Source: Carcharhinus longimanus
Taxonomy: Eukaryota
DNA: 62,078 nucleotides
NCBI GenBank assembly: GCA_030264375.1
Contig: JASCQW010000190.1
Span: forward strand, 54,822,873-54,884,950
Reading direction: 5' to 3'
The stretch's first letter is position 1; each line of letters starts with the position of its first letter. The position numbers and the translations under genes were made by a program. The notes under the pieces are model-generated. The model had not been told where the DNA came from. It worked only from the letters and a program-made list of their open reading frames with translations, and ran no database searches. Positions 2,284-62,078 of the stretch are shown here, in pieces.

Positions 2284-2874
2284 CNNNNNNNNNNNNNNNN
2301 NNNNNNNNNNNNNNNNNNNNNNNNNNNNNNNNNNNNNNNNNNNNNNNNNNNNNNNNNNNNNNNNNNNNNNNNNNNNNNNNNNNNNNNNNNNNNNNNNNNN
2401 NNNNNNNNNNNNNNNNNNNNNNNNNNNNNNNNNNNNNNNNNNNNNNNNNNNNNNNNNNNNNNNNNNNNNNNNNNNNNNNNNNNNNNNNNNNNNNNNNNNN
2501 NNNNNNNNNNNNNNNNNNNNNNNNNNNNNNNNNNNNNNNNNNNNNNNNNNNNNNNNNNNNNNNNNNNNNNNNNNNNNNNNNNNNNNNNNNNNNNNNNNNN
2601 NNNNNNNNNNNNNNNNNNNNNNNNNNNNNNNNNNNNNNNNNNNNNNNNNNNNNNNNNNNNNNNNNNNNNNNNNNNNNNNNNNNNNNNNNNNNNNNNNNNN
2701 NNNNNNNNNNNNNNNNNNNNNNNNNNNNNNNNNNNNNNNNNNNNNNNNNNNNNNNNNNNNNNNNNNNNNNNNNNNNNNNNNNNNNNNNNNNNNNNNNNNN
2801 NNNNNNNNNNNNNNNNNNNNNNNNNNNNNNNNNNNNNNNNNNNNNNNNNNNNNNNNNNNNNNNNNNNNNNNNNN

Positions 2875-3685: not shown

Positions 3686-3752
3686 GTAGGTTTGCCCACT
3701 TACTCGGTTTCAAAACGTGAAGAGGCCGGAGGGCATTTGCTCACACTCTTGA

Positions 3753-3966
3753 TTCGTTGGTTGCACGGGATTAAAATGCAGCCCGTTTCGTTGGTTGCAC
3801 GGGATTAAAATGCAGCGCGTTTCGTTGGTTGCACGGGGTTAAAATGCAGCGCGTTTCGTTGGTTGTATGGCGTTAAAATGCAGCGCGTTTCGTTGGTTGC
3901 ACGGGAATAAAATGCAGCGCGTTTCGTTAGTTTCATGGGGTTAAAATGCAGCGCGTTTCGTTCGTT
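3753..3966. repeat. 34-bp minisatellite, 6 full copies plus a partial copy
   Basis: Consensus TTCGTTGGTTGCACGGGRTTAAAATGCAGCGCGT. Units start at 3753, 3787, 3821, 3855, 3889, 3923 and 3957 (partial). Confidence 0.95.
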
Positions 3967-41520: not shown

Positions 41521-43924
41521 GGCCACCTTGGTGGCTTTTTTGGTCCTTCTGTCAACCTTGTCCTCAAACCTCCAAGATTCCCCTCAATCTTCTCCAAGGA
41601 AATCAACCCCAGTTTGTCCAATCCATTTTCATGCCTTCATAACTTTCCTGGACACGATGGTTCAGCTTCAACTGGAACAAGTGTTAGATATAGGTTTACC
41701 ATAACTTGCTTTTGTATTCTGCCCTTATTAATAAAGTTTGTGTCTTACATGGCTTATTACTTTGAAACTGGCTGATTTGTTTACATATGCCCCTAGGTCC
41801 CACTACTCCTGCACCCATTAGAATTGCATCTTTTTGTCTTGTGCCTCACGTTTAATGTACCAAAATGAATCCCTTTATACATCACTGGAAGAAATATGGG
41901 TATTTGTTTGCTCATTTCACCAGCCTAGGCTCTATTGGAGTTTATTACTGCCCTCAACAATTCATAATACTTTGAAGTTTTGTCACCTGAAGATTTTGAA
42001 ATTGTGTCCTGAACACCAAAGTCTGGATCATTAATATAAAGCTAACATAGAGGACCTAACAGTCCCTGAGAGATCCACTATGTACCTTCCTCCAGCCTTG
42101 AGTTGTATTCACAACTGTTTTTGTCACTCAGACAATTTCATATCCATGTTGCTATTGTCTTTTATTTCATAAGCTCTAACTTTCCTAATGCTGTTTGTGG
42201 CATGCTATGCCTTTTGAAAGTGCAATTTTGTACTATACAATGAAGGAAGAAATAATGGAAACTTGCATTCATTAAATTTAATTTGCTTAGTTACTCAATC
42301 TAAAATCCATCCTGATTTAGTTTTCCAGGAATAAAAACCTAATTTCAATTTAATAAAATCAGAATAATCTGTTCAGTGATAACTTGTGAATTCCGTTTTG
42401 ACTTGGACATAGTCCTGAAAAATGCTTTGAAATCTTTTAACATCAATCTGGACAGGCAGGCACTTCAGTTTACTATCTTACCTGAAAGGGAGCACCCCCA
42501 ACAACACAACACTTCAAGTACTGCTCTTAATTTCTGGAGTTGCCCCTTAAGCAGGAAACAATGGGGAAAAGGCTGAGATGTGTTTTATGTATTCTACAAT
42601 TTTATCCCAATTATTTTTCTTTGAACTTTCTACATAAACAGCAACACCAAATTGTGCTCAGAATTTAAGGATAAGAGGACTAATTGGGTTGAAGTAATTT
42701 ACAATTGCCTAGCCAATAGGTCAAATTAAAATGACTTTTAAAAACTTCCATAGAAACTTGTTGTGCAATTCAGATTAAGTTCAATGCAAACAGCCTTGCC
42801 ATCAGAGATCAGTCCCCCAATCAGAAAAGGGAAGTAACCCATTTTCTAGTTGTAACTATTTTTACTGAAAATTAATACCCATTATATTTTGAGATGGTTC
42901 ATGTTATTGGAATGAATTAGAAGGAATGTGATGTGCAGTCAGCTATCTTTCACAAATTTCTTTGGGTATATTTCTAAAATCTGATCTATGCTATAGCTTG
43001 AATCCACTGATATCTTTCTTGCACTGCATTATTCTGCTTGTGCACTAAACAAGTAAGATGAGTCGAGAGTGGGTGGTATAACTAGGCATTTTATTGATAT
43101 CTCTTGAAGGAAGAAAGGTCCTGTGCTGTAATGGTGTTCCAGACTGAGATTTTTGTCATGTTGGCTCCATTTTGTAAATGCTGAAATGGTTTCCCAAATG
43201 GTGCATAAACCACAGCTATAAGCATTCTTGCCTGTCATTCAAAATATTTAGATTAAAATAAGTACTCATCTAGAGTGCTGTAAAATGAGATAATCAACCT
43301 GTTCCCTTCTAATACCTGTTGAGGCTGAATGTTATAAAGTTCTGCCTGGCTAATCCAGGGTAAACTTGATCCTCTTGGTGTTTGTTCTGAGTAGCTCCCT
43401 TCTCTAATACTGCTGTGGCTTAACACCAAAAACCTGGTTGGGTGTCAAGTAGTCTGAGAATTCAATTCAGCTGGTTGCGCATTGAATGAAAGTAGTTTTG
43501 CATTAATAGCTGTAGCTTCAATTGCAGTAGAAATTTCTGGTTAATATTGTATGGGGGATTAATGTAACAACTGTCCAAACCGTTGTGTATAAAAGATGGC
43601 CTAATGATGCAGCTGGCCACGTCTGTGAAAGCCGAGTCATACAGGCCAAAGAAGTTTGATTCCATATGTTGTAGTGGGGTGCTATAGCCAGCTAGTTGTT
43701 TTATCCTGGGTTGGGAGGAGGCAAAATGCAGCTGCCACTTCTGATTCCCACTGTTTAGGACCTATCAGCACAAGAAGTTCTTGGAATGTGTGGATGTTGC
43801 TGTGAACAGATTTGTGACTGGTGTAATCACCCACCCTCCTGGCCAAAATTCTTCACATTCAAAAGTAAATTTGCAGAGAAATGTTTAATTATACTTCTGT
43901 TTCTCTTCCACACTATTCTTACAG

Positions 43925-44059
43925 CTCAGTATAGAGAAAGTCAGGGCCATGGTGGAACAAGTTGAAATGAAAGCTCAAGTGATTCGGTCAGAAGTCAAAG
44001 CAGTAACTTCGCGGCACAAGAAGGCTCTGGAGGAACGTGAATGTGACTTGTTAAGAAAG
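43925..44059 (+). CDS. TRIM71: TRIM71 coding exon 3 (135 nt): coiled coil
   Basis: Acceptor ttctcttccacactattcttacag|CTC. Translates [45 protein letters not shown]. Donor AAG|gtgagt. Phase 0-0. Confidence 0.96.
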
Positions 44060-45239
44060 GTGAGTTACTCTTGCAGTTTGTCAAATGCAATTTGGTATCT
44101 AAACAAGCTAAGTCATCAATGGTTTGTGATTCAGTGCTTAATGCTGAGTGTTTACATGAGAACTGAAATTAACATATCTTTTTCATCAGCTCTACCCTGT
44201 CCACTCCAGGTGGTGAGTTGTGCTGCAGTATACTTTTGTGCCATGCTCACGTTGGAGCTTAGCTGATTGAAGGCTATTGCGCTATGATGATGGGATGTTG
44301 TGTCAAATTAAAGCTACGTCATAGGCCTACCATCAGACTGAATAATAGCTGATGCTGTCAGATATAAACACACATGGCATTGATTGCCTGTACTGATTAG
44401 GGGGCTGTGAGGAGTGGGGGAACAAGCAGTGGCCTCCCTTGTCTGGTGAATTATCTTGAATTGCTGGATAAAAGCAAGTTACTGCAGATGCTGGAATCTG
44501 AAACCAAAAGAGAAAATGCTGGAAAATCTCAGGAGGTCTGGCAGCATCGTAAGGAGAAAGAGCTGAGACCAGATGCCCTTTGTCAAAGCTGGGTCATGAA
44601 TTGCTGTGACTCTTGCGTACGTATACAATCATGATCCTGCAATTGACAATTAGATGAGTGACCACTTGAATCTGTTTTTGATATTGATCGTTACTGGAGA
44701 ACCTTCGCTTAAAACAACATCATGGAATTGAACATCTGCTGAAACGGTTAAATGGCAGTTTCATGGAATAGAATTTGCAGTGTAGGAGGCCATTTGACTT
44801 TTAATACCTGGTTCTTTTGGCTGTCCTATGCCCTATCCCAGTGTTTTTTTCCCCATTACTCTGTAAATTAGACCCCTTTAGATGAGCCTATTCAGTTGCT
44901 TTTTGAAAAACCTAATGGAATCTGATATCCCACCACCTCAAGTAGCCTGCTCCAGATCTTGACCCTCCTGTGAAGAAATTCTCCTTCCTCCAATTCCTTC
45001 CAATTAATTATCCATTTGCCAGAAGAAAAAGCTTCTCCATATTGCTATAATTTTGAATACCTCTTAGATTCTGAAATGTCTCTCAGGAGATCAATTCCAT
45101 TTTCTATATACTCTCTGCATAACTGAATACACACATTCCTAATACCATCCTAGCTTCCACTTTGACCTCTCCAGGCCCTTGACACCCTTAAAATATTATT
45201 CACAGAATTTTTCAAGAACAGGTAGGGGACTGAGCATTC

Positions 45240-45740
45240 TGCGGCCTGTAATTCACCTCCTGACTCTTCAAAGCATGTTCACCATCTACAAAGCACAAGT
45301 CAGGAGTGATGGATCTCCACTTGCCTGGATGAGTGAAACTCTGAACACTAGTTGCTTGATTGCACCCCATTCACTATTTCAAAAATTCACTCCTTCCAAG
45401 GCATAGCGGCAGCAGTGTGTACTGTGTAACATTGCAACAACTCAGTGCGACTTCTAACAGCACATTTCCAAACCCACAACCTGTACCATCTAAGGATGGG
45501 GGCAGCAGTTGCATGGAAATGCCCCCACCTGCAAGTTCCCATCCAAGCCACACGCCGTCCTTTCAAAGAGGAAGAACCATATTGCCATTCCTGTCACTGG
45601 GTCAAAATCCTGGAACTCCTGGCAGTGTAGCTACACCTACTCCACAGGGACCGCAGTGGCTCAAATTGGCAGCCCACCACCTGAAGAGCAGTTAAAGATG
45701 GGCAGCACATGCTGGCTTAGCCAATGGCACTCGCATATTG
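45240..45740 (+). mobile_element. LINE (CR1/L2 group) 3' fragment
   Basis: TIYKAQVRS..SPLAW motif and tail cagcccaccacc...gatgggcagcacatgctggc. Related minus-strand fragments appear around 17200-18230 and 37480-38880. Confidence 0.7.
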
Positions 45741-46164
45741 TAGAAAAAATAGAATTGTGCACAATATTCCAGCTAAGGTCAGACCCCATTTTAAAAGTGT
45801 AGCATGACTGCCCCTCTTTAATCCCATGTACTTCTATTTTCGAAAATATCACCATTTTGGAAGTCATTACATATCTTGTTGCCTCAGATAATTCTGATCA
45901 ACTTAGACATAATTTGCCTTTTAACAAATCCATGCTGGTTGTCCCTTATTAACCCATGTTGCTCTCGATAGAACTTAGCTGTTCCTGACAATTGATTTTG
46001 GACTAGTTAGAATCAAGATAAATTTACAGCAAAGAGCTAGAACATTCAGCCCATCACATCCGTGTCAACCAACACTTACCCATTCGATCCAATTTCACTT
46101 TCCCAACTCTTAGTTCATAGCCATGCACTTACAGTAGTTTCTGGCTCTACAACATTTACAGGTT

Positions 46165-46512
46165 TTAAGTCGGTCTGCCTTGTTGCCCAACGAGGGGCAT
46201 ACACGCGATGGGTCGCACTTGGGCTTCTCTTGGTTGTTTGAGATTGGCCTAGTGCTTCATGTTGTTAGTGTGTGCTTAAACTGGACCAGATGCTGGGCAA
46301 GACGACAGCTCAGTGACTATCACTGTTTGCTGTGCAGACANNNNNNNNNNNNNNNNNNNNNNNNNNNNNNNNNNNNNNNNNNNNNNNNNNNNNNNNNNNN
46401 NNNNNNNNNNNNNNNNNNNNNNNNNNNNNNNNNNNNNNNNTCTTATTGAATGGCGGGGCAGGCTCGAAGGGCCAGATGGCCTACTCCTGCTCCTATTTCT
46501 TATGTTCTTATG
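46165..46512 (+). mobile_element. CR1 LINE collapsed across the 100-N gap (putative 5' end on the left, 3' tail on the right)
   Basis: Tail 46441-46512 differs from 762-833 at only 2 positions. The left side is CpG-containing and encodes DYHCLLC, resembling the CR1 ORF1 zinc finger. Confidence 0.62.
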
Positions 46513-46519
46513 AAACAAT

Positions 46520-47680
46520 CATAGAGTGCAGAAAAGGCCCTTCGGCCATCGGATCTGCTTTGGCAATAGCTATCACTAAAATCATGCCAGTCCCATTTTC
46601 CTGCACTTGTCCCATATCCTTGAATGTTGTGAAATTTCAAGTGCTTGTCCAGCTATTTTTTTAATGGACGTAAGGTTTCTGGCCTCTGCCACCTTCCTAT
46701 GCATTTTAAATTCCCACCACCACCTTGTGTAAAACATGTTTTTCAAATCCCCTCTGAATCTCCTGCTTCTTAGACTAAAACTGTACCTTCCCTTGACCCC
46801 TAAACCAAGGGAACAGCTGCTGCCTAATCGCACTCAATCGCTATACATTTTAGACCTCAATCATGTCTTGTTCTTCTCCATACACACACACGCACACACA
46901 TACATATACGCATAAGCACCACCACCACCCCCCAACTTTCTGCCTTCCTTGCTCTAAAGAAACCAACTTGAGTCTTAACACTAGGTTAAAGTCCAACAGG
47001 TTTATTTGGTAGCAAACACCACTAGCTTTCGGGGCTCTGCCTCTTTGTCGGATGACTCATCTGATGAAGGAGCAGAGCCCCAAAAGCTAGTGGCATTTGC
47101 TACTAAATAAACCTGTTGGACTTTAACCAGATGTTGTGAGACTTCTCACTGTGTTTACCCCAGTCCAACGCCATCATCGCCACATCTAAAGAAAATAATC
47201 CAATCCTATCCTAACCAGTCTCTTGTTATAGCGCAAATGTTCCATCCCAGGCAACATCCTGGTGACCTTCCTTTGTACACCCTCAAGTACAGTCTCATCC
47301 TTCCTATAGTGAGGTGATCAGAACTGCATGCAGCACTCCAGCTGTGACCTAACCAGCACCATTTATCTTGATTGATGCTGATCATAGAATTCAATATCCT
47401 GATTCCTCCCCCCACCCCCTAATCTCTTGATCCCTTTAGCTCCAAGAGCTATATCTAATTTCTTGAAATCGGACAACGTTTTGGCAGCAACTACATTTGG
47501 TGTTAGTGAATTCCACACATTCACCACCCTCTGGGTGAAGAAATTTCTCCTCACCTCAATTCCAAAATTGGAATTTATCCTCAAGAGGATTCCCTTATCC
47601 TCAAACAATGAGCCCTAGTTCTGACTTCTCTAGCATTGGGAGCATTCCTTCTAAGCCTACCCTGTCTAGCTGTTAAAATT
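46520..47680 (-). mobile_element. Stack of minus-strand CR1 3' fragments, interrupted by a palindromic Penelope-derived element
   Basis: ORF 47363..47608 reads VRRNFFTQRVVNVWNSL...FKKLDIAL. ORF 46582..46833 reads RRFRGDLKNMFYTR. Confidence 0.8.
46971..47185. mobile_element. Palindromic Penelope-derived element
   Basis: About 170-nt near-perfect fold-back (ggttaaagtccaacaggtttatttggtagcaaa / tttgctactaaataaacctgttggactttaacc) plus tail ccccagtccaacgcc. Flanking duplication ctaaagaaa at 46954 and 47186. Confidence 0.8.
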
Positions 47681-48835
47681 TTTGAGATTGCTATAATAGG
47701 TGACTCTCCAGCTACATCCATGCCATTAGAATAGGCATTACGTAAATGCTGTTGGTTATGTTTGAATGTATAATCTATAGAAATCATTAAAATACAGTAG
47801 AATATTTAAGGATACACAAAGATACTGCAGCTTTAGAATTTGGTGTATTAAAGTCTAGGCTTATTCAGGAGAGACAAGGGTGAAGATTCATTTTTATATA
47901 TTTGTGGTGGGCAGTCTTAAGGCCCAGGGCTACATGCAGCTCACAAAACATTTTGTTGACTGCCCAAGGGCAGGGTTGCCACATTCCACTGACTTCTGTC
48001 CTTGTAGTTTTTTCCTACAAGTCTGACTGAAGTGATACTCATGTAAAGCCAAGAAAAGTGAAGTGAGGTGCAGGTTGCTTTTGCACAACTGACTGAGCGC
48101 CCTACGCTCCCTTTCCAAAGTGCAAATGTTTATTTTGTTTTTACTATTTCAAATTGATAGTTCTAGTAATATATGAATGATTACACAATTTCTCTAACTA
48201 ATTATAAAACACTTGGCAAGTATTCAATCTTATTCCTATGGTCATGTTTAGTCAACAAGCTCAATTTCCCAATCACGAGCCTAGGTTGCGCCTCACCATC
48301 AATCATTGAAGGTAGTCTGTAACTTGAGTTCGGTGCTAATGTTTTATTTTTTCACAATACAAACAATAACTTGACAAGACTCAACTTGAGCTCAGTGACT
48401 CTAGTGTGAGGGCCCAATTGAGTTTTGCTTGGAGCAATCTGAGGTAATGAATTGCAGTTTTAAGAGCTCCAATAATTTCAATCAATATAGTGCTTTTTTT
48501 TGAATCATAAGTTTGAGCATCTAGTTTCCAGCATGAGCTTCTCTCGACTAAGTTTGGATGTTTCAGCTGAATTTAGTGCCCCTAAGTTAGAAAGTCTTCG
48601 GGCCTTGATTTTGATGATTAAACCCTACTGCAACAGCAGCAGATATGGATGTCTTGAGGACAGACTCTGCCTTGTATTTGTATTAAAACAGTCAATTGAC
48701 CTCTTGGATGTCAAGCTGTAAAGATGTTTTTGCAGCAAGGGGAGAAAATTGATTGCATCAGTAAGTTACTTGGATATAGTGGGTGAAGTCAATAGAATTG
48801 TGTTCAACATTCTCTTTTTTTCACCATGTGAACAG

Positions 48836-50287
48836 GTTGAAAAGATCCGGCAGATGAAGGCCAAGACTCTGCACCTTCAGGTGGAAGCACTGCGTGAGAA
48901 TTTAACCAGGCTGGAGAGCACTATTGACTGTGTGCAGAAAGCCTTACTGGATGGGCGAGATGTGGATGTACTCTTGGCAAAAGAACAAATGTTTGTCCAA
49001 ATTCAGGACTTGAAGAAACTTCGGAATCTCCTTCAGCCTCAAGATGATGACACGCTTTCTTTCATTCCACCTGATGGTGTCCTGTACAAAGCCATTAAGT
49101 CCTTGGGTATAATCAGTAGCAGTGCATATGCCCCAATATGTACGGCTACTGGCGAAGGGTTGAAACGAGCATTACGTGGGAAAATGAGCACCTTCACTGT
49201 AATCACCAAAGATCACACTGGTGAAGGAAGATCTTCAGGTGGTGATTTGGTTGTAGTTGTTATCATGGGACCTGATGGCTGTCTCTTTCGTGCTGACGTT
49301 CTTGATCATCATGATGGCACCTACACAATTAGCTACTCCCCACATCTAGAAGGAGAACATGTAGTCTCGGTGACGATTCGTGGCCAGCATATTGAAAACA
49401 GTCCCTTTCGAGTAATTGTCAAAGCAGGTCGCAATTATGCTGGAATTGGGCTTCCGATTTGTTCCTTTGGCGGAGAAGGGGATGACGATGGACAGCTTTG
49501 CCGACCTTGGGGTGTTTGTGTCAACAAAGAAGGCTACATTATCATTGCTGACCGTAGCAACAATCGTGTTCAGGTCTTCACTCCAAGTGGAACCTATCAC
49601 CACAAGTTTGGAACAGCAGGTGCCAGACCTGGGCAGTTTGACCGTCCTGCCGGTGTTGCTTGTGACCACAATTGTCGTATCGTAGTGGCTGATAAGGACA
49701 ACCACCGCATTCAGGTTTTCACCTTTGAGGGACAGTTTGTCCTCAAGTTTGGGGACAAAGGAAGCAAAAATGGCCAGTTCAACTACCCTTGGGATGTTGC
49801 AGTCAATACTGATGGAAAGATTCTTGTGTCTGACACTCGCAATCATAGAGTTCAGCTTTTTGGCCCAGATGGAAACTTTGTAAGTAAATATGGTTTTGAG
49901 GGAGCTTTGTGGAAGCACTTTGATTCTCCTCGTGGGGTGGCCTTTAACCATGAAGGACACCTTGTGGTCACAGATTTCAACAACCATCGGCTGCTGGTAA
50001 TCCATCCTGACTTCCAGTCTGCACGCTTCCTTGGCTCTGAAGGCACAAGTAATGGTCAGTTCCTCCGACCTCAGGGTGTAGCTATCGACCAAGAAGGGCG
50101 CATCATTGTGGCTGACTCCAGGAACCATCGCATTCAGATCTTTGAACCAAATGGCAACTTTCTGTGCAAGTTTGGGACCCAAGGCAGTGGTTTTGGGCAG
50201 ATGGATCGTCCGTCCGGAATAGCCCTGATGCCAGATGGACTAATAGTAGTCGTCGACTTTGGCAACAATCGTATCCTCTTGTTTTAA
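48836..50287 (+). CDS. TRIM71: TRIM71 coding exon 4: end of coiled coil, filamin domain, six NHL repeats, stop codon
   Basis: Acceptor tctcttttttcaccatgtgaacag|GTT. Reads [10 protein letters not shown]...GQLCRPWGV...GQFDRPAGV...GQFNYPWDV...HFDSPRGV...GQFLRPQGV...GQMDRPSGI...[10 protein letters not shown], near-identical to the vertebrate TRIM71 C-terminus. TAA at 50285-50287, followed by a second TAA. Confidence 0.98.
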
Positions 50288-50328
50288 TAATGCTGTGTGC
50301 TTTGTTTTTCTATATTGTGGATTTGTTG

Positions 50329-50336
50329 CTCAGGGA
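50329..50336 (+). promoter_or_regulatory. miR-125/lin-4 8mer target site (CTCAGGGA)
   Basis: Exact 8mer 41 nt after the stop codon. lin-41/TRIM71 is an established target of let-7 and lin-4/miR-125. Confidence 0.8.
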
Positions 50337-50395
50337 CAATGTCTTAATTGTTTTCCCTAGAGAAGACAGGTGTTTTTTTTCTGTGCTGCAGTCAT

Positions 50396-50468
50396 CTACC
50401 TCATGTTGGTAAAGTGTGAGCTGTGAGACTACTTCAAAACTACATAAATATATAGCAGACCTACCTCA
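50396..50468 (+). promoter_or_regulatory. Pair of let-7 8mer sites (CTACCTCA at 50396-50403 and 50461-50468)
   Basis: Two exact 8mers, both with plausible 3' supplementary pairing (TGCAGTC and TATATAGC against let-7 nt 11-19). A G:U seed variant CTACTTCA lies between them at 50429-50436. Confidence 0.88.
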
Positions 50469-50995
50469 CTGCCTACAGATGTTGGGCTGACTTAATGTTT
50501 GGATATTTCCATGGAACTGTGCAAATGTGTCCAGGCAATTGGTGCCTTTTATGACCTGAATCCAAAGACTTGTTTCTTAGTATTAAAATTGTCCTGTAGC
50601 TTTATTTAAAAAAAACTCTCAGGTAGGAAGACTATTGGCCACTTCTATAGCCTAAAAAATGGCCGTTTGTGGGTGACTGAAAGGCTTTGGCTGCCTACCT
50701 GCATACATTTTGTTTTCAGGGATTATTTGATATTGAATATCTCATGTTAAGCCCTACACTCTTTTGAATGTAGCCCTACGCTCCATCTGAATGTAAACTA
50801 AATACCTCCTTTTTTGTTTTGTCTTTAAGGTTTAATGTTCTTTGGCTTGATGCACATAATGGTGAACATAGAAGTTAAGGGTTCTTCAGAGTGTTTATTA
50901 GGGGTATTTGTGTAAGGAAGATTTGGGTTGTCATTTGATACCCTGAAGATCAAAGTATATTACCTGGGATAATCAAATTATATTTACTTCGACTG

Positions 50996-51003
50996 CTACC
51001 TCA
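50996..51003 (+). promoter_or_regulatory. let-7 8mer site
   Basis: CTACCTCA in the 3' UTR. Confidence 0.7.
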
Positions 51004-52350
51004 GGTACCTGTATAAAATCAATTTCCTACTGATTTGGTAGGCTGTATTTGGTTTTGGAGGCAGTATTACTTTGTGTTGGAAGTGTGAATTGGTTGNNNN
51101 NNNNNNATCACTTTTTCCTTGGCTCTTGTTGAGCCCTGGTTGGGAATCTGCGGAAAAAATGAGTTTAGGGTGGGGAAAGTCCACTAGTCCTGCTTTGAGT
51201 GTGGTACTGCTTGGATGCACACACGCTGTTACAGATGCCATAAACGGAAAATTAAATGAACATCTAAATTAATTAGATTCTCAATGCTAAGCTTTCTAAA
51301 TGAGGGAATTTTTAATCACCCAAAGCTTCGTTGAAACATAAAGTATTTGGAAGTGATATCTTTATGATAAAAATATCGTAAAATGCACCTGCAAGCTGAC
51401 CAGTTCTTTTACAAACAGGAATTAGGCAACGGGGTTACATTGTCCTGTCCTTTTAAGTAGAAAATAAGTCACTCCTTACAGAGCATTATTGTAATAGTTT
51501 GTGTGTGTCGTGCGCTGGAGCGGTAGTAACACTTGTAAAGACCCGTAAGGACTGGCAATAATTGCTGATTGTAACGGCGCTGTTATGTGAATATTCTGCC
51601 AGGGTTCTGGTTGTACCTAATAGTTAAGGAAATATATATATATTATATATATATGCTGTAGTGGTAGGAACATTGGTAGCATCCATGGATTTTTCCAATT
51701 CTGAATCTTCAATTTTTCCTGTAGCCCAAAAGTGACCAATTAGTTTAGAATTGAGACTACGTCTCTTTAAAACAATTTTAAATTAAGTTTATGCAAATGA
51801 TTTCCTTCACAGCCTTCTCTTAAATACAGATTTTAGAAAAAAACAGTATTTTTACAGTCTAGGAACACAGCATGTAAACGTGACATTTTACAGAAGCCAC
51901 ACTGAATATTTTTGCAAAACAGAAGTGGTTAACAGCCATAAAATTTAACTCTGAGCCAGTTTCAGTACATCTGCTAAGTTACTCCAGTTATCCTGCCTTG
52001 CTAGTCTGGTGATCAGAGTTAAAGGCACGCTCCCATTTCCATTTCACTTAGTCATTTGTCTGCCAGTTATTTGCAGCCATGCTGCAGTCTACAAAAATGA
52101 CACATTCCATCTTTATGCTAAAGTGGACATTACCTTTTAAGATGGAAGGGGGTCCAAACATTTTAAAGCTGTGAAGGTTAGTGATTTTTCAAATGCGACA
52201 GAACTGTTTTCTTCGCATGATCGGGAGACTGGCTTCATTTTCAATCAAAAGTGACATGGTCAGTTATGGAGGCAGGCTTGCCTTTGGAATAACTTATTTA
52301 GACCATATCCCCAAATCAAGGGGTTAAAGAACTAATGAATATAGTTGGAC

Positions 52351-52358
52351 CTACCTCA
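52351..52358 (+). promoter_or_regulatory. let-7 8mer site
   Basis: CTACCTCA preceded by ATATAGTTGGAC, which resembles the context of the 50461 site (ATATAGCAGAC). Confidence 0.72.
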
Positions 52359-53842
52359 ATCCTTTTGTGGTCAGGGTTCAAGTGCAAGAGCTGCTGTTTA
52401 CTTAAAACTTGCATCAGTTTGGCTGTTTTATCATTCCTCTGAATTGGTTGAAACAATGTCTTACTTTTGAATTCTTGGAAGGATGGAAAGCAGAGGCATG
52501 CTAGCCAGTAAAATCATAATAGAAAATCTGTAATGAGGGGTAGCATTAATGTAAATTGAGGTTTGCAGTCCTCGAGTCTGAAAAGGGTGGCTGTTTGTGG
52601 TTAATCTTCAGTAAGATTGGAAAATATTTCAGAATTTGTGTGGAGCTGCGTCCATTTATAAATGTTAGTATCCTACTTTATTATATGCTCCCTAATGGAT
52701 CAATTTAGCTTTCAGGATGAAACTGGCTAATGTGCTGCTTCAGATTGTAACAGTTGGTTGAATATGTCGTGGTTAGATGTTGTAGCATAGAATGGCTTTT
52801 GTTTTACACATTGGGAAATTGTTCATGAGCAGTGGTTAATGATTAACACAAAACTGTTAAGGGGCCCATCAATTTGAAATGCACATTTAAACGCCAGCTT
52901 TTCAAGTATGAAATAGGTTTTGTCTTTAAAATTAAATAAAATCCGACAAAGCCTAATTCTTGTAATTTGAATACTGTGCTCTTTAGCTTTGAGGTTTATG
53001 CAGTTACAGCTTTGGGTGGACTGCATTAGAAATATCTCTTGGAGCCATTTTTTCCCCCTTTTTAGCACAAATTTAAAGATACAAGCACACATTTGTCAGC
53101 CCCGCTTTTGGGGTATTTTTAAAAATAAATATTCAGCCTTTAAAAATCAACTTTTACAAAACAAAGTTGTTTTTGTATTGAGTTCCTTTTGGGATAGCAA
53201 AATTAATAAATCTCCCAATCAAATTGAACCTGTTTAAAACAAAAACATGTCCTTAATCAAAACACTGTTCAAAATATATCTTTTTTGTTGCTATGTTTGA
53301 AGTTATTAGCATGACACAGGAATCACAATTGTCTGCTGGCTAGAATATTGGCTGCTGATGAACTTTGCTAATATAAAACGTGAGATGACCCCTCTGATCA
53401 TGTTGTTTGTAATGAGGTTATCAGCTAAACATTTGGTGGAATGGTTGTTAAAATCATACACTTGTTTTTGAACTAATTTTTTGAACATTCTTTTCACATG
53501 AAATATAGGTGACCCTTTACAGGTGTAAAACTTCAAAGTCCATGGGAGATGATGAAGCCCTTATTTTAAAAATTCACCCATTTTAATCTTTTCTATTTGG
53601 CTTGTGTCTGCTATCCAATTGGTAACTTATTCTCATTTGGTTTTCTCTGCATTTTGAATTGGGTCAGAGTTTGGAGTGTTCAAAACTCTCGTTACTTTCC
53701 AACTTTACAACTGGACAAATCCCCAAAGTCTGTTTTAGCTTGAGTATTCACAAAATTTCATAGTTTTACAAGCAAATGCAAAGAGTTCACTAAAAGTGCT
53801 TAATGGATTATGTTCACAATTCTTAAGTCAGGCACAGTACCT

Positions 53843-54056
53843 TACCTCAAATAACCTCAAGAAAAGATCAACTTGCAGAACCCCAAGAGGCCAATTAATT
53901 CAGAGATTAGGATCTAAATGATACATAATTCTCAGGGAAGTGATCCTACCATCTCTGGAGGGTAATAGGGGTGCAAGATCTGGTTCTGGTGCCTTGTCAG
54001 GTAATGGCTTTCGTCTACCTCGGTGCCTCTTTCTGCGGCAGCTTCAAACTACCTCA
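53843..54056 (+). promoter_or_regulatory. Distal miRNA site cluster: let-7 7mer-A1 (53843), miR-125 8mer (53931), miR-124 7mer-m8 (53989), let-7 7mer-m8 (54015), let-7 8mer (54049)
   Basis: TACCTCA, CTCAGGGA, GTGCCTT, CTACCTC and CTACCTCA within 214 nt. Confidence 0.72.
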
Positions 54057-54548
54057 TGTTGGAACCCAATTGTCTCACCATTGGGTGAATAACTTGCACC
54101 GGGGGCTAATGTGCAGTTTTTTGATATTGGGCTTTTAATGCAACCCATGATTCAGCTGCTGAAAATGGCATTGAACAAAAGTATATGAATGATGATGGTG
54201 TAAAAACGCTCCTGGTTTGTCTCCTCCAGCCACAGTCCCATTCAGCGTGCAATTGGGATCATCACTTTCATTGCATCTGAAGTTAAACTTAAGGGAAAAA
54301 AATCCTTCCACAATCTGAACAGAACTCCTTCTGAACTTCAAATAGGGAATTATCATTGTTTAAAATTAATCATACATAAAAGGCCATACACCCAGGTATT
54401 TTCTGTTAACTTTGTGACATCAAAGGGAAAACTCCGTGACAGATGACTAGCTTTTTGACTAGCCCTGCTCTCTGCTGAATGATACAGTTTTATTAATAGT
54501 TGCATAATTTTATATAGTGGCATCACCAAGCAGGCCAACAAAAAATCT

Positions 54549-54555
54549 CTACCTC
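54549..54555 (+). promoter_or_regulatory. let-7 7mer-m8 site
   Basis: CTACCTC. A Pumilio element TGTACATA lies nearby at 54602-54609. Confidence 0.55.
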
Positions 54556-56022
54556 TTTTGCACACAGATGGATTATGTTATATTTAGATATAATATAGAC
54601 ATGTACATAAAAATGGGATGGTTGATTCACAATTTAATAAACATGCTGGCCCAATAGGTGTTTGTCCTACTGTTCCAAAATTTTTTTGGACTTCCATAAT
54701 TGGAGGTGTGTGGTTGGCAGCAGATGGGTCAGTGTCGGTCAAATTACTGGAGTTTCTCATCAAGGTTATTGAGTTGATGTGGCATTCTTTTTGTTTTCCT
54801 TTTTCTGCTTGTCAAATGCAGTTTACTCCAGAAGTGGGGGGAGTGGGGCTGTTATTCACTGGGAAAAAGGTGGCAGTGCCATACTTGGGGGCAGGGGAGG
54901 AGTTGGTGGTAAGGTTGGCTTCAGAAGCAGTTGGATTATATAGCCAGTTTGCTGCTTCATTCATGTGCATGCTTGCAAAATAGAAAATGGTGATTTAGGC
55001 ACTTGGAGTTGATTTTCTAAACTTGCCAGCAGATTCAAGTGGAGTCTTGCAGGGTTTGTTTGACCAATTACAAACCAGTGCAGTTTATTCAAAGCCTAAT
55101 GATAAATTTAATAACCCGTTTAACACACCAAATAGTTGGACATTGTTAAAATGTAGACAAAGGAGTTGTTGGCTTTTTTCATTGACAAAATGTGATCCCA
55201 GCTGATAGTGGGAACACCTGATTTGCTGTTTGTTTAAACAAATTGTTTTTGTGAACTGATTTTATGAAGTGCTTAAGTTGTTTTTTTTTATATTGTGAAA
55301 CTGGGTTTCAAACCACTAGTTAAGCAGACTTTATTCAAAATTTATTCTTGAGAATTTAAGTGTCTGGTCCAAGATCCAGAAATCCTGGCTGAGAAAACGT
55401 AATATATAGCTTAAAGAAATTTTCGCTGTTTTCTAAAAACGGTGAAACCAAGTTCTGGGCTCAAATTATTTTAGAGGCAGAGCTGCAGTAAAATCAGAAG
55501 TTCTATTGAGTTGTATAAGAAGTGATTTTGCTTATTGCCTCTGTTTATCTTTTTCTAATTTTAACTTTGTAGTCTGTGTTCTAGATTAAGGGGATAGCAT
55601 TAAAATGTCTGGTGCAAGTGGTCAAAGGCCCTTTTCTCAAACTTAGACAAGTGCCTCAAAATGACGGAGCCTATTTCTGTATTTAAAAATGTCCGAGCAG
55701 TATTGTTTAAGTTACTGTTGTACAACAACCCAGCATTTAATGTTCATCGGTGGTTACCACTGCTTAAAGGAGAGGGGAAATTGGGGTCCTAGACTACCAG
55801 AAAAGTGTTTGTTTTAAAAGAAAGTTCCTCTTGGGACTTGTCTTTACAGTAAGGTGACGGGTAATTTTTTTTGTTTCACCCTTTTGTATAATTTCCCTCT
55901 AATTGTAAGATCCAGCCTCTGCACCAAAGAATGAGGTTTACTGACCTGGAACACTTCTTATTCCTGTGTGTTTGAAAGCCTAAAAATTGATGTTTGTGCA
56001 ATTTTTATCTGGATGAAAGTTC

Positions 56023-56028
56023 AATAAA
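56023..56028 (+). terminator. Likely distal polyadenylation signal
   Basis: AATAAA followed by T/GT-rich sequence (ttgtgccatttttttt...gttgtgtt). It sits near the end of the repeat-free block. Confidence 0.55.
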
Positions 56029-56707
56029 ATTTGTTTACAATTGATGAACTCTTGTGCCATTTTTTTTGAAAGTTGTGTTAAATCCATGCACGATGTACAA
56101 CAAAAGCTTCAGAATTACCATGTGGTATTATGGATGGAAATGAGCAGAGACCCAAATTTCATGTAAATCACAGCATATCTGAATTAAGAGTTTGATCTTG
56201 AGTAAATTGAAGTCCTGTGCTTTCAATTCCTGCAGTATGTTCTTACAGGAGATGAAAGTTGGTTTAAAAACATGTGATTTCACACTCGTATTCTAATTTT
56301 GTTACTGTGTAAGTCCTAATTTGGTTATAATATTGGGAGCAATTATAAAGGGATCATAATTTCTTAATCAGTGGACCCCAGCTGATTAAAACCGCTAATC
56401 TGTGTTTTGTGTGGATGTTGCACTTATTCTTAATTGGCTCATGTATTGGAGCTTACCCGACAGCAAATGGATATGAGCTATCAAAAATTAGCAAATGGTC
56501 CTTATAAAGTGTTCATGTTTAAAACATGTATGGACTATTCAGAAATGTTAACCTAGGACTTGGGTAATGTTTCATGATCTCCAGGTTCTTGTAGCTCCAA
56601 GTAGCAGGGCTGCTAGAGTAGACCAGTGTCGCTATACATTGTACCCTTGGACCAAAACAATGCGGCAGTGCCAGTGAAATATAATGTGTAGAATCCAACT
56701 TAAATTG

Positions 56708-57080
56708 ACAGTGTAGTGGTCATTGCTAGTGAATTAGTAATCCAGAGGCCTGCACTAATTCAGGAAATGAGTGCTTAAATCCCACCATAGAAGTTTGAGA
56801 ATTTGAATTTCAGTTTTGCTAGAATCAACTTCAAGTGCAGTTGAGAATGACCAATAAATGTTGGTCTAACATAACATGTCTGAAGTTGCTGGACTGTTGT
56901 AAAACTCCTAGGTCACAAATGGCCTTTATGAAAGGAAATCTTCCATCCTTACTGTGAATGCACATCTTGACTCGGACCCATAGCAATGTCGTTAACCTTT
57001 CATTCTCCTCTGAACTGGCCTAGCAAGTTAATGAAGGCCCACCAGCTTGGGAGATAGATGTGTCCAATAAATGCTGGTGG
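56708..57080 (+). mobile_element. tRNA-derived SINE, family distinct from HE1 (related pieces near 16470-16642 minus and 60104-60160 plus)
   Basis: gtgtagtggt...tagtaatccagag...aaatcccaccat...aatttgaatt...aaggaaatcttccatccttac...caataaatgctgg. Confidence 0.6.
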
Positions 57081-57661
57081 TAGCTGTGTGCTGTAGTGAA
57101 CAGGCTTATAGGAACTTTGACTTACTATGGCATTACAAAAGTAGGATCTTTTTAAAGCTGCATCTGGGTATTCTAATGACATGTTGCTTCACTTTGGATA
57201 CTGTTCAGTGCAGTGCTTCTGGCATTATAAAGTACTTCAGTCATCCCTTCTCTTGAAGTTTTGTAAGCTTCCATTTTATAGTCTTTGTCCCTTTCTCAGT
57301 AAGCCTGTGCCGTTTTTACCATTTATGCTGGCTCCCAACAAGAAGTTAGTGAAGAACCAGTGGCAAATAAGTGTTCTGGATTTTTGGGGTGGTCACCTAC
57401 GTTTCACTGCATTTGTAATGAGCAGAGAATTGGAAGGCAACAAAATGTAGCTCAGCTGCTAAATGACATTGGCAGTAAAAGTGGAACTGAGCCTCTGAAC
57501 CATGCAATTCCCCATGTGTCTCAGGATGGAGGTCAGCAGATTTGTTTGCCCAGGGCATGGAATCAAGTTGTAGTAACCTTCCATTCGCTCCTTATCCTGT
57601 GAAATGTCACAGGTAGCATACCATTTCTCTGCATACTGTACCTGATACTGTCAGAAGTTCA

Positions 57662-57712
57662 TACCCTGGATGGTTTAGATCTCTACCCTGGATGGTTTAG
57701 ATCCCTGCCCTG
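57662..57712. repeat. 22-bp tandem duplication plus a partial third unit
   Basis: taccctggatggtttagatctc / taccctggatggtttagatccc / tgccctg. Confidence 0.85.
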
Positions 57713-58764
57713 CCAGTGATTATGTCCTGTAGCATATCAAAATTTGAGTTACAGGGATGAAGACAAAACTGTACTTACAACTTCACCTAGTAAGTACTCA
57801 GACTGGTGTGAGGTTTGATGTCTGCTTGGACATATTGACAAAAGTTCATAGCGCACATTAATTACAATAGCATTCATTTACAAAATCACAGTAAATTATG
57901 CCCTTGTAGCCTCAGGTATCTTTCCCAAGTGATGAAAAATACTGAACAAATAAGTGTTTTGGGTTCAAATTCAATAATTGGAACCATGGTTATTGCAATC
58001 CAAGATTCTGGCTGGAATTCTCCAGCATTGCACACCCACCCATGGGGTGACGATGGGAATTCCTATTTACAGTGGCGGCACCAGAGAATTCCACCACTAG
58101 CAATGTGCCACCTCCTGTTTCCAGGAAACAGCTGGGAGGTCTAACTTTTTTAAAAATGTCTTATTGCACAAACTGCCCAGTCAAAATAATTCACTTCAAA
58201 ATTTTTAACTAGATGTATATTACAAATTTGCTAGTTTTAGATGCACGGTCTTGAAATGAACGTTCACATTGTTAAGCAATTACATAGGTTGCATATGTAC
58301 TGAAAAGTGTGAAATAAATGATATTCGCAAGATGTGAACCCAAGGAAGTTGATTTAACAACCAAAATATGAATGTGGTTTCAGCACAAGATGGTTGTTTG
58401 ACGCATTCAGGTCCTGGCTCTGCGAGAGCAATTTAGCCAATCCTGTTCCCCCTTTGCCTTCCCCTATTACCTCAGTGAGGTACTTATCCAATTGCCTGTT
58501 GAAAGCCACAATTAAAAGTGCCTTCACTCTATCAGGCAGTGTCATCAAGATCATTGTCACTTGTGTGTGTAAAAAAAAAAAATTCCTTCACATTGGTTCT
58601 TTTGCCAAAGACAATCACTTTAAATCACTGATACCTGGTCATGATGTTTCAGCTGAGGGAACAGTTTCTATCTAGAAATCTCGTGATTTTGGATTTATCA
58701 AATTTCCTCTGAATTTTCTCTGAAGAGAGAAACCCCTCCTCCATGCTAATAACACAGCTAAAGT

Positions 58765-59425
58765 TTAGTTGTGCAGAACTTGAGTATTGCTGGAAAAAAA
58801 AATGCTATCAGGATAGCTTGCAAGAAATACCAGCTGTGTAGGGAGCAACATTTGTACTGCGTGAGAGGAGAGTGCTAATTGGTTGGCAGCTGAACTCTGG
58901 TAAAGGCATTGCTATGGAGAATGCAGCAGAGTTAACTGCCAAACATTTTTTAAATTCAAACCAGGTAGGTTGGTCAAAACCTTCCACAGAACCAGGGAAT
59001 GGCTAACCCCAAGCTTTTGTTAGTTGAAGGTACAGTGTGAAAACATGCTCCTCAGCCTGCAAAGGATAGTCTTGTGTATGTAGCTTCTAGCATGCAAAAG
59101 TACATACTTGTGAGCCCAACTGATGATCATTCAGCCTATCGCACAAATAAATGAATAATGTTATGAATTTCAGTGCCTATGTAATGCTGTAAAGACAGGC
59201 TGTACATCCCAACAACTGGTGAATCACATCAAAACACAAGTTGCTTCGGCAGTTTATAACAGGCAGGGTACCAACTGTACGTCAGTCACGATTACAGTAG
59301 GCTGACTTCCACTTGTAGTAGCCACAGTGTAATTTGTTTTTCAAACAACTGATATTTCTTGCAAGCTGTTCTGATGAATTCCAAAATGAGAAGCTTTCAT
59401 GGCATGCCTTTTTTCAGCAACAGCT
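58765..59425 (+). mobile_element. Penelope-like remnant with inverted termini and a GIY-YIG fragment, inserted in a minus-strand CR1
   Basis: Termini atcaggatagcttgcaagaaatac / gatatttcttgcaagctgttctgat. Interior YEFQCLCNA..GCTSQQLVNHIK resembles the GIY-YIG N-terminal motif. Confidence 0.6.
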
Positions 59426-60344
59426 AAAGTTCCTCATCTCTGGAATAATTTTTGTGCATCTTTTCTGAACCTTCTCTTAAACGTTTCATCCTTCCTAAAA
59501 GGCCCTTAAATGGACACACTGCTTCAATTTGAAGACAAACTAGTGTTTTATAAAAGTTCAACGTAATTTTCTTGCTTTTCTGTTGGTTGTGTGTAAAGGT
59601 CAGAAGCTCATGTGCCTTATTAACTGCTTTCTCAATGATTTGCGTTCATGCACCTAAGGTCAGTCTGTTCCTGCAGCTCCTTGAATTGTCTTATTATTGC
59701 ATGTCAAGTATGGCCTTACCAATGTACAAGTTCAATACATCCCCTGTTCTTATCATAGAACATAGAACACTACAGCACAAACAGGCCCTTCGGCCCACGA
59801 GTTGCGCCGAACACATCAACACCTACCAATCTATAGACCTATCCCATTAAACCCCATATACTCATCCAGAAGTCTTTTAAAAGACCCCAGCAAGTTCGCC
59901 TCAAAATGTAGCACTTCACATTCTTCTGCTGTTACGTCGTGTAATTCTACCACTCTGTCCTCTTGAATTTTAACACCTGGATTATCCTTGTGCATTTTTG
60001 TGAATAAGAGCGTAACACTTCAAATTCTCCAACTGTCTTGCACCACTCCAATGTTGACATAGGAGATTATGGTCTGTACCTTTACAATTTCTACCCTTAA
60101 CCTGGGGAGGCTGTGGCGTAGTATTATTATTACTAGACTAGTAATCCGGAGACCCACGGTTTGCTTAGATTAACCAGACTGCGTGCATTTTTGGTGCACA
60201 ACTGACCCAGAGCTGAGCTCCTGTCACACATCTGTCATGACCATGTTTCCACCTCTGCTGCTTTGCCTGACTTAGTCCACATCTCAGCTTATCTGCTGCT
60301 GCAACGTCAGATATGATTTCCAATGCACTTCAACTAATGTCCCA

Positions 60345-61830
60345 TCTTCCACAATCAAAACACAAAATGCTCAAATACTCCAGGTCAGGTATTAGCTGTG
60401 GAGATGTGTCAAGTCAACAATCCTTCATCGTAACTGAGGAAAGATAGAAATTTAATAAGCTCACTTAGTTGAGTGAAGAAAGAACAAAAGGTTTGTGATC
60501 AAGTAGAGGCTAGGTGAGGTTAAGTGACCAAAGGCCAATCAAGGTGGCAATAGAAAGAATAAAAAAAGGCAAAGATAAGAACGTGCCCAGATAAAGTGTG
60601 CATAGCAGGCTAGCTAACATCTGAATGCAATGTGAAGGAATAAAGAAATGTGAAAAAATTGAACTGGCAAAATGAATGGAGACTGAGATTATGAATAAGT
60701 CATGAGTTCAAACTGGAAGTGTTGTCAAGCTTGCATTGAGCTTCACTGGAAAACAGTCTGTGGACAGAAATGTCAAGAGTGAGAGCTAAGTGGTGAATTG
60801 AAATTAGCCACAAGAAGTTCAGGGCCACTCTTGTAAACTAAACTGAAATGTTCTATCATCCAGTCTGCATTTGGTTTCACCAATATAGAAGAAACCGAAT
60901 CAGAAGCAGCAAATACAGCCTGCTATCTTAAAAGAAGTACAAGTAAATCATGGATTCGCTTGAGGGTAGAAGGTAAGAAGAGAGGTGGTGAAAGGACAGG
61001 TGTTGCATTTCCTGTGCCTGTGTGAGAAGGTGCTGTGGTTAGGGGTGCCTGAGGAGGGGGACCAAGGTGGTGCAGAGGGAATGATCTCTTCAAATGCTGA
61101 AAGAGGGCAGGGGGAGATGTGCTAAAATGATGGATGGTGATCTGTTCACCATGGAGGTTGATGGGATGAAAGGTGAGGACAAGGGGAACCCTATTGTGAT
61201 TCATGGAGGGGGGGGGGGTGCGTGGGGAGCGCAGAAGGAACGGGGTGAGTAGATCTGACACAGTCAAAGGCTTGTCAACCATGGTGGCAGTGGTTCAGGC
61301 AAAAAAAACTCAAAACACTAATGTGAAACACAGAATCTTCTAAACAGATGCAATAAAGACTGAGAAATTGGGGGTGGGGAATGGAGTAGAGACTTTCATA
61401 GAAATGGGACATAAGTGCATTTAGTCAGTGGACTTTCCATGAGTATTAGTTGGCATCTGATACCCAAAAATGGAAACAAAAGTCCAGGCAGAGTCAGAGA
61501 TGGTCCCTTGAAGGTGAGAAAAGGGTGGAATTGGAAACTCCCACAAAATTTTCTAGTTCATAAAATCAAGAAGTTGCATCAATGTATCAAAAGGTACATT
61601 TGAGGGAGGGAGGATGCTGGAGTAGAACTAGAATAAGAAGTGTTCCACATAGCTCACCAAAGGACAAGCTAAGAACCAACCAAATACCCATTTATTTGAA
61701 CTGAGTGGAGATGAAGGAGAAATAGTTTGTGCAAATACATTCAGCCAGGAGGAGGAGAATGCTGGTGGATGGGGATAGTTTGGGAAGCTGCAAACCTTCA
61801 CCTGCCCTGGTGGGGAATGGAGGTCGTGAC
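60345..61830 (-). mobile_element. Decayed Penelope-like retroelement (RT C-terminus, linker, Zn motif, GIY-YIG, terminal repeat)
   Basis: NRVPLVLTFHP linker (ORF 60923..61282), RKCNTCPFT Cys motif, YIGETKCRLDDR near 60855-60888. The terminus resembles the short aaatgctggaaa..ctcagcaggtc family. Confidence 0.75.
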
Positions 61831-61912
61831 GTGAAGATGTCAGTGTTGGACTGGGGTAAACTCAGTAAAAAGTCTCTCAACACTGGGTTAAAATCCAACC
61901 GGTTTATTTAAA
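61825..61912 (-). mobile_element. Terminal fragment of the same Penelope-derived family as 46971-47185
   Basis: gttggactggggtaaac...tcaacactgggttaaaatccaaccggtttattt. Confidence 0.65.
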
Positions 61913-62078
61913 TGGAGGTGTCGAGGAAGTGGACATTCGTGGCAAAGGGGAGACAGGGCCAGGAAAATAGAAATTGTTGAAATGACATAGAGCATTACAA
62001 ATCGCAAAAACCCAGTCTGCAGGTGATCAAGAAGGCGAATGGAATGTTGGCCTTTATAGCGAGGGGGATAGAATATAA

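What the first reader, a model, noticed from the sequence alone, without database searches (positions are those of the whole stretch)
50288..54609. Dense, modular let-7/miR-125 heterochronic code in a shark lin-41 3' UTR
Seen: five let-7 8mers (50396, 50461, 50996, 52351, 54049), three 7mers (53843, 54015, 54549), two miR-125 8mers (50329, 53931) and a miR-125 7mer-A1 (50716). A rough composition-based expectation is well under 0.1 copies of a given C-rich 8mer in 5.7 kb, so five is strong enrichment. The proximal layout (miR-125 site followed by paired let-7 sites) recurs 3.6 kb downstream at 53931-54056. Established: lin-41/TRIM71 is the canonical let-7 and lin-4/miR-125 target from nematodes to mammals. 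Inference: this cartilaginous fish keeps, or has amplified, a second full repression module.
Basis: partly seen in the sequence, partly recalled or inferred. Interest (0 to 1): 0.7.

Follow-up and report, generated by a model that had tools for sequence, protein, structure and literature searches.

The report
Hidden lin-41 paralog with let-7-rich tail
This shark gene's long 3' tail carries eight let-7 and three miR-125 docking sites, far above chance but ordinary for the lin-41/TRIM71 family; the surprise is that the gene is likely not the counterpart of human TRIM71 but an ancient duplicate that mammals appear to have lost.

Summary
All 11 seed sites are where stated. Five let-7 8mers against 0.045 expected (0 of 1500 shuffles). 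Spliced transcript contigs from related organisms run through every site; the UTR likely ends near 56040 (about 5.75 kb). The distal cluster sits in a conserved ~290-nt block; the last site (54549) is lost in one relative. It shows no sequence trace of being a copy of the proximal trio, and the density is not shark-specific: human TRIM71 has a 6-kb UTR, bird- and teleost-like genes share the proximal trio, and invertebrate lin-41 loci carry 4-5 let-7, 2 miR-125 and miR-100 sites. A miR-100 site (55857) was missed. New: trees group this gene and all chondrichthyan 'TRIM71' with coelacanth/lungfish 'TRIM71-like', not with canonical TRIM71 (99/96; AU p=0.014-0.019). It lies beside LRRC29 and near CBFB, on a different chromosome from the 3p22-type markers, and is the only lin-41 found in this assembly. 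Likely reciprocal paralog loss, with the microRNA code older than the duplication. The scan's notes hold no earlier TRIM71 finding. Repression is untested here.

The parts
48836..50287 (+). Coding part of the last exon of lin-41/TRIM71-like (coiled-coil end, filamin, six NHL repeats), stop at 50285-50287
   Evidence: Pfam NHL x6 and Filamin; PDB TRIM71 E 8e-217; GT..AG intron 44060-48835
50288..56045 (+). 3' UTR, about 5.75 kb; end inferred
   Evidence: Contigs end at 56013, 55980, 56015 and 55925 in 4 runs, depth 0 in bin 56121-56721; AATAAA at 56023. A weak hint by the tool's own terms; no DNA run was laid across the end
50329..50468 (+). Proximal trio: miR-125 8mer (50329), let-7 8mers (50396, 50461)
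   Evidence: same order after the stop in bird-like L009 (+29, +83, +162) and teleost-like L023 (+311, +361, +445)
50716..50722 (+). miR-125 7mer-A1
   Evidence: conservation not resolved
50996..51003 (+). let-7 8mer
   Evidence: conservation not resolved
52351..52358 (+). let-7 8mer
   Evidence: conservation not resolved
53780..54071 (+). Conserved distal block: let-7 7mer-A1 (53843), miR-125 8mer (53931), let-7 7mer-m8 (54015), let-7 8mer (54049)
   Evidence: Run X6: 1 substitution in 292 nt against 22 in the next 560 nt; single-copy in the genome; no stable fold, z 0.29
54549..54555 (+). let-7 7mer-m8, not conserved
   Evidence: Two substitutions at 54549-54550 in run X6 break it; no listed substitution in it in X7
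   Evidence: expected 0.09 and one such site also lies antisense, so it rests on comparison with other lin-41 genes
56023..56028 (+). Likely terminal polyadenylation signal AATAAA

Best explanation
This is the 5.75-kb 3' UTR of the only lin-41 gene found in this shark assembly, carrying eight let-7, three miR-125 and one miR-100 seed matches that likely let those microRNAs switch the gene off as cells differentiate, and the gene is likely the paralog of mammalian TRIM71 rather than its ortholog. Mechanism (inferred from the family): Argonaute loaded with let-7, miR-125 or miR-99/100, clustered in this genome, pairs with canonical seeds and triggers deadenylation and translational repression. 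Separated sites add up; the distal let-7 pair, 34 nt apart, falls in the reported cooperative range. The distal cluster most likely built up by site gain and retention under selection, not by copying the proximal trio. History (inferred): an early vertebrate duplication gave two lin-41 genes. Chondrichthyans kept the copy linked to LRRC29, CBFB and DYNC1LI2; tetrapods and ray-finned fish kept the 3p22-type copy; coelacanth and lungfish kept both. The miR-125/let-7/let-7 trio behind the stop, present in both lineages, would then predate the duplication.
For: Enrichment and strand bias. One spliced 7361-nt contig (run X2) joins 44057 to 48834 and runs to 54847 across all 11 sites; an X1 contig spans 49715-56013. 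Conserved distal block. Nine let-7 hairpins, two mir-10-family (miR-99/100-type) hairpins 1.4 and 4.3 kb upstream of let-7 genes, and a miR-125-type hairpin 23 kb downstream of one on the same strand. Paralogy: window + chondrichthyans + Latimeria/Protopterus 'TRIM71-like' 99/96, 99/98 without the long lungfish branch; AU rejects shark + canonical at p 0.019 and 0.014. Canonical bony-vertebrate proteins are 87-94% identical among themselves, the shark gene 75-76% to them. Derived shared residues 9 (shark + coelacanth-like): 4 (shark + canonical): 2. An LRRC29-like gene lies ~70 kb downstream, CBFB 4 Mb away, and the DLIC gene on this contig is closer to human LIC2 (140 against 128.5 bits). The other DLIC, an STT3 and a GLB1-like gene lie on C132. 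Two tblastn searches find no second lin-41.
Against: No reporter or Argonaute-binding data. The seeds alone are not shown conserved beyond chance (P 0.13-0.25 for no change in 30 nt); the relatives laid are only about 2-4% divergent, and some difference rows were not listed. A strict count of derived residues was uninformative (2:2:3). AU p-values are moderate. Human map positions are recalled, not from a call; no LIC1 chain was listed for a reciprocal test; the STT3 paralog on C132 was not typed. The assembly has gaps (68,774 contigs), so a canonical copy could be missing from it. The miR-125 hairpin scored below Rfam's cut-off. The neighbours of coelacanth 'TRIM71-like' were not seen.
Confidence: 0.75

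Rival explanations
1. The gene is the ordinary TRIM71 ortholog that moved chromosomes in the chondrichthyan lineage; the tree grouping with 'TRIM71-like' is an artefact of shared ancestral residues. The UTR is then simply shark TRIM71's let-7 target tail.
For: NCBI names these proteins TRIM71; identity to canonical (75-76%) equals identity to the coelacanth-like copy (75%); strict derived-residue count 2:2:3.
Against: Two models and two taxon sets reject shark + canonical; lenient count 9:4:2; linkage to LRRC29, CBFB and a LIC2-like gene; bird- and teleost-like proximal UTRs align with each other (score 49, above 200 of 200 shuffles) but neither aligns with the shark's (score 26; 18 and 36 of 200 shuffles as good).
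Confidence: 0.15
2. One reading: the distal cluster is an amplified copy of the proximal module, a cartilaginous-fish increase in repression.
For: Same order of sites, P 0.017-0.034; sites 50396 and 54049 share 6 further nucleotides after the seed (P about 0.02 over 28 pairs and two sides).
Against: Best flank-pair score 27 against a null mean of 27.8 (P 0.62); seed-masked module alignment 15 against a mean of 22 for other UTR segments; not among the 20 largest repeat families shown of at least 60; invertebrate loci have similar let-7 density. A very old duplication could have decayed beyond detection.
Confidence: 0.12
3. The distal block is a cassette switched by alternative polyadenylation: cleavage at one of three AATAAA signals at 52935-53205 would drop four let-7, one miR-125 and the miR-100 site, giving a less repressible short mRNA.
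For: The three signals lie just upstream of the block; the block is conserved as a whole, not only at seeds.
Against: AATAAA is common in this AT-rich DNA (12 hits in 49000-62078); single contigs cross the signals in runs X1, X2 and X6. Contigs drop rare forms, so this is not exclusion.
Confidence: 0.15

Closest known systems
Mammalian TRIM71/LIN41 3' UTR (let-7, miR-125, miR-99/100 target)
   Same: TRIM-NHL filamin-NHL exon; long UTR (human 6013 nt, PMC11977657 passages, printed there as '6013 kb'); miR-100 and miR-125 seed matches (same paper); miR-99a reporter repression (PMC8962266 passages); top-ranked let-7 target (TargetScan 6.0 table in PMC3380223).
   Different: Likely the paralogous gene on another chromosome; UTR sequence not alignable with the bird-like UTR apart from seeds. 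No published count of let-7 sites along the full mammalian UTR was found.
Coelacanth and lungfish 'TRIM71-like' (XP_006001234.1, XP_043937363.1)
   Same: Sister group in all three trees that held them (coelacanth only in 106).
   Different: There it is a second, shorter-annotated (583 and 705 aa), faster-evolving copy beside canonical TRIM71; in this shark it is the only copy found. Their UTRs were not seen.
Multi-site let-7 targets such as HMGA2
   Same: HMGA2 has eight let-7 sites (PMC5346756 passages), the same count as here.
   Different: Unrelated protein; miR-125/miR-100 co-targeting not checked for it.
C. elegans lin-41 LCS1/LCS2
   Same: let-7 control of a lin-41 family mRNA (PMC4382986 passages).
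   Different: The worm sites are imperfect seeds with strong 3' pairing (recalled); the shark sites are perfect seeds without long 3' pairing.
Hidden paralogy in chondrichthyans (nanos1, Nodal/Lefty, globins)
   Same: Differential retention of early duplicates between sharks and bony vertebrates (search listing and abstract openings only).
   Different: None of the 25 listed papers of 52 mentions TRIM71.

Membership tests
lin-41/TRIM71 family | Filamin domain followed by six NHL repeats, best match to TRIM71 | tested here: met
lin-41/TRIM71 family | N-terminal RING and two B-boxes | tested here: inconclusive
   Cys/His-rich ORF at 2279-3808 runs out of an N gap; the Pfam call on it failed on frame and was not repeated; 98%-identical shark relatives carry PF00643
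Canonical TRIM71 (ortholog of human 3p22 gene) | Groups with bony-vertebrate TRIM71 in a tree rooted on invertebrates | tested here: not met
   AU p 0.019 and 0.014
Canonical TRIM71 (ortholog of human 3p22 gene) | Linked to DYNC1LI1, GLB1, STT3B (human positions recalled) | tested here: not met
   Such genes lie on C132; the window is on C190 near LRRC29-like, CBFB and a LIC2-like gene
Canonical let-7/miR-125 target 3' UTR | 7-8mer seed matches on the sense strand above chance | tested here: met
Canonical let-7/miR-125 target 3' UTR | Sites inside the mature transcript | tested here: met
   Spliced contig across all 11 sites; runs are RNA by the tool's guess and by the skipped GT..AG intron, and come from related organisms
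Canonical let-7/miR-125 target 3' UTR | Seeds conserved above background | tested here: inconclusive
   Distal block conserved (p 0.001-0.057), seeds alone not significant, site 54549 lost in X6; proximal trio shared by order with L009 and L023
Canonical let-7/miR-125 target 3' UTR | Cognate microRNA genes in the same genome | tested here: met
   let-7 and mir-10-family hairpins over Rfam cut-off; miR-125-type hairpin folds at -35.3 kcal/mol but is below cut-off
Canonical let-7/miR-125 target 3' UTR | Seed-dependent repression | not testable with these tools
   Needs reporters or Argonaute CLIP
Internally duplicated regulatory module | Sequence similarity between modules outside the seeds | tested here: not met
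   one 6-nt flank match as the only hint

The most novel reading that the evidence does not exclude
Sharks, rays and chimaeras run the let-7/lin-41 developmental-timing switch through the genome-duplication twin of TRIM71 that tetrapods and ray-finned fish lost, having lost the copy we use. The miR-100/let-7/miR-125 code on lin-41 is a bilaterian inheritance that survived the swap, and the conserved distal block is a cooperative second repression hub particular to this paralog.
Probability: 0.55. Interest if true: 0.6.

Novelty: new member of a known kind. Interest (0 to 1): 0.45.

Why it matters
The let-7/lin-41 link is textbook, so the site density alone adds little. If the paralogy holds, database 'TRIM71' entries for chondrichthyans are mis-assigned, shark-versus-mammal comparisons of this essential embryonic gene compare paralogs, and the shared proximal trio can be dated to before the early vertebrate duplication. 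Coelacanth and lungfish, with both copies, become the test of how microRNA site codes diverge after duplication. The distal block also matters practically: the human full-length UTR could not be cloned in one study, so distal sites in this family may be little tested.

Tried and rejected
Module duplication: rejected. Conserved RNA structure: none (z 0.29 and 1.07); Rfam gave 3 weak matches far below cut-off. Strong 3'-supplementary let-7 pairing: longest perfect run 6 nt, at most 5 at the other sites. Site accessibility: mixed, no pattern. Alignment of the shark UTR to the bird-like UTR L009: no significant hit; that contig ends 3918 nt after the stop, so distal sites there are unseen. No run is on record as RNA ('no RNA holder listed'); contig depth was not used as expression. 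Run X10 did not cover the distal block; X17 showed only 3 of 9 substitutions. GTDB scan gave 5 prokaryotic NHL loci; the viral-contig pattern scan was off target and its loci were not examined. Rfam lin-4 search of the genome found nothing and had no positive control. MARVEL search did not locate CMTM genes. tblastn of 200 kb beside the C132 DLIC gene found no TRIM71 remnant, but about 26 kb of it is N and the locus may lie elsewhere. Four papers were not held. No published let-7 site count for the full mammalian UTR in searches; the mouse site map in PMC13302136 is a supplementary figure that could not be read. No shark lin-41 UTR study among the 20 of 118 listed. The ohnolog database's one held supplement has no TRIM71; its data tables and bioRxiv supplements were not visible and may bear on novelty.
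Full report
OBSERVATION. All 11 sites are at the stated coordinates, downstream of a stop codon ending at 50287. Over 50288-56040, five let-7 8mers compare with a shuffle mean of 0.045 (0 of 1500 reach 5) and eight let-7 sites of 7 nt or more with 0.36 (0 of 1500). miR-125 is weaker: 3 of 1500 shuffles reach two 8mers, 18 of 1500 reach three sites. The antisense strand has no let-7 or miR-125 site. The exon encodes filamin plus six NHL repeats, best matched by TRIM71 structures, and is 98% identical to named shark proteins.

TRANSCRIPT. Four runs from four studies and four coded organisms were laid on 43500-61500. The tool only guesses they are RNA, but contigs in X1, X2 and X6 join 44057 to 48834, which is a GT..AG intron (44060-48835). 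One 7361-nt X2 contig carries that splice and continues to 54847, across all 11 sites. Contigs end at 56013, 55980, 56015 and 55925, the next bin is empty in all four, and AATAAA lies at 56023. The UTR is therefore likely about 5.75 kb; the end is a weak hint, as no DNA run was laid across it.

CONSERVATION. On 53780-54640, all 23 substitutions of X6 were listed: 1 in 53780-54071 and 22 in 54072-54631 (Fisher p 0.001, boundary chosen after seeing the data; p 0.015 for the site span 53843-54056). X7 had 18 of 19 listed, all beyond 54071; the unlisted one lies somewhere in 53780-54025 (worst case p 0.006 and 0.057). X17 showed 3 of 9 substitutions, X10 did not cover the block, and 12 of 21 indel rows were shown, so a hidden change in a seed is not excluded. 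Site 54549 is broken in X6. The seeds alone are too short to show constraint at this divergence (P 0.13-0.25). The constraint covers the whole block, which has no stable fold; what else it holds is unexplained.

IS IT A SECOND COPY? The layout recurs more than random placement predicts (P 0.017-0.034; four of eight sites within 215 nt, P 0.013). But flank similarity between let-7 sites equals that of random positions (P 0.62) and the seed-masked modules align worse than other UTR segments. The only hint is a 6-nt shared run after seeds 50396 and 54049 (P about 0.02). The distal let-7 pair is 34 nt apart, within the 13-35 nt range reported as optimal for cooperation (PMC1874663, abstract); the proximal pair, 65 nt apart, is not. 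Pairing to this genome's own let-7 sequences shows plain seed sites.

IS IT SHARK-SPECIFIC? A metagenome scan returned 55 loci; I examined the 19 most lin-41-like. Of 13 with at least 400 nt after a resolved stop, 10 have a let-7 site and 6 a miR-125 site; L015 (8 kb) and L021 have none. Bird-like L009 and teleost-like L023 (placed by tree) have the miR-125/let-7/let-7 trio. Two loci on the annelid-mollusc branch carry 5 let-7, 2 miR-125 and 1 miR-100 sites in 5 kb (L014) and 4, 2 and 2 in 10 kb (L016), with a miR-100 8mer aligned between them; their UTR ends are unknown. Human TRIM71 has a 6013-nt UTR with miR-100 and miR-125 seeds (PMC11977657, passages) and a TRIM71 reporter responds to miR-99a (PMC8962266, passages and supplement rows). 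Trim71 ties with Lin28b near the top of a TargetScan let-7 table (PMC3380223, passages); HMGA2 has eight let-7 sites (PMC5346756, passages). Conserved let-7 and miR-125 sites on lin-41 are stated in PMC4382986, PMC3916362 and PMC8208056 (passages). The shark UTR also has a miR-99/100 7mer-A1 at 55857; alone it is not above chance (expected 0.09, one antisense). The genome holds nine let-7 hairpins and a miR-100/let-7/miR-125-type cluster on C160.

WHICH GENE IS IT? The shark protein is only 75-76% identical to bony-vertebrate TRIM71, which are 87-94% identical among themselves. A 38-row quick tree placed chondrichthyan proteins with coelacanth and lungfish 'TRIM71-like' (SH-aLRT 99), apart from canonical TRIM71 of the same two species. 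Careful trees on 18 and 17 chosen rows, lamprey left out, gave 99/96 and 99/98, and the AU test rejected the default shark + canonical clade (p 0.019, 0.014). Derived shared residues favour this 9:4:2 under a lenient rule but tie 2:2:3 under a strict one. Synteny is independent: an LRRC29-like gene (46-47% to named amniote LRRC29; NCBI calls the shark genes FBXL2-like) lies ~70 kb downstream, CBFB 4 Mb upstream, and the DLIC gene on C190 is closer to human LIC2 than the one on C132. C132 also holds STT3 and GLB1-like genes. From recall, LRRC29, CBFB and DYNC1LI2 are human 16q22 genes and DYNC1LI1, GLB1, STT3B and TRIM71 are 3p22-23 genes. Searches with the shark and the bird-like NHL find one lin-41 in this assembly, and every named chondrichthyan protein in the 240 listed homologs and 10 clusters read is 94-98% identical to the window's; those lists are cut and clustered, so loss is inferred, not shown.

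MECHANISM. Shown: sites, enrichment, inclusion in a spliced transcript in relatives, block conservation in close relatives, cognate microRNA genes, tree and linkage. Inferred: seed-dependent repression during differentiation, cooperation of the distal pair, reciprocal paralog loss, and an age of the proximal trio before the duplication (it is shared by order and position, not by alignable sequence, so convergence is possible).

NOVELTY AND SCORE. The paralog swap was not found in print (25 of 52 listed, none mentioning TRIM71), and the scan's notes hold nothing on it. Interest 0.45.

Noticed in passing
window 55857-55863: miR-99/100 7mer-A1 about 165 nt before the terminal AATAAA, completing targeting by all three members of the miR-100/let-7/miR-125 cluster.
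   Followed up: partly
window 52935, 53124, 53205, 54636: Internal AATAAA signals flank the distal block; possible alternative polyadenylation, no evidence in contigs.
   Followed up: partly
window 50562, 54602, 55923: Two miR-9 seed matches (50562, 55923) and a Pumilio-type motif (54602) (motifs recalled). A preprint lists Trim71 as a predicted miR-9 target (passages).
   Followed up: no
L002:1258-1992 (G000:C32 near 19.52 Mb): Another NHL-repeat exon, 46-47% identical to lin-41, outside the lin-41 group; not identified.
   Followed up: partly
P0100, P0114: Turtle 'TRIM71-like' proteins fall inside the amniote canonical clade, so they are younger duplicates, not the shark-type paralog.
   Followed up: partly
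L014 +3007-3329 and L016 +4370-4689 after the stop: A 326-nt block 77% identical between two invertebrate lin-41 downstream regions, without a let-7 or miR-125 seed; conserved element or repeat.
   Followed up: no
L072 (G000:C162 near 126.21 Mb): A let-7 hairpin whose mature arm differs at position 1 and position 10 from the common form.
   Followed up: no
window 44467-44558, 46150-46450, 46970-47590, 59770-59900: Highly repeated, heavily covered elements (likely SINE/LINE pieces) in the last intron and downstream; none in the UTR.
   Followed up: no
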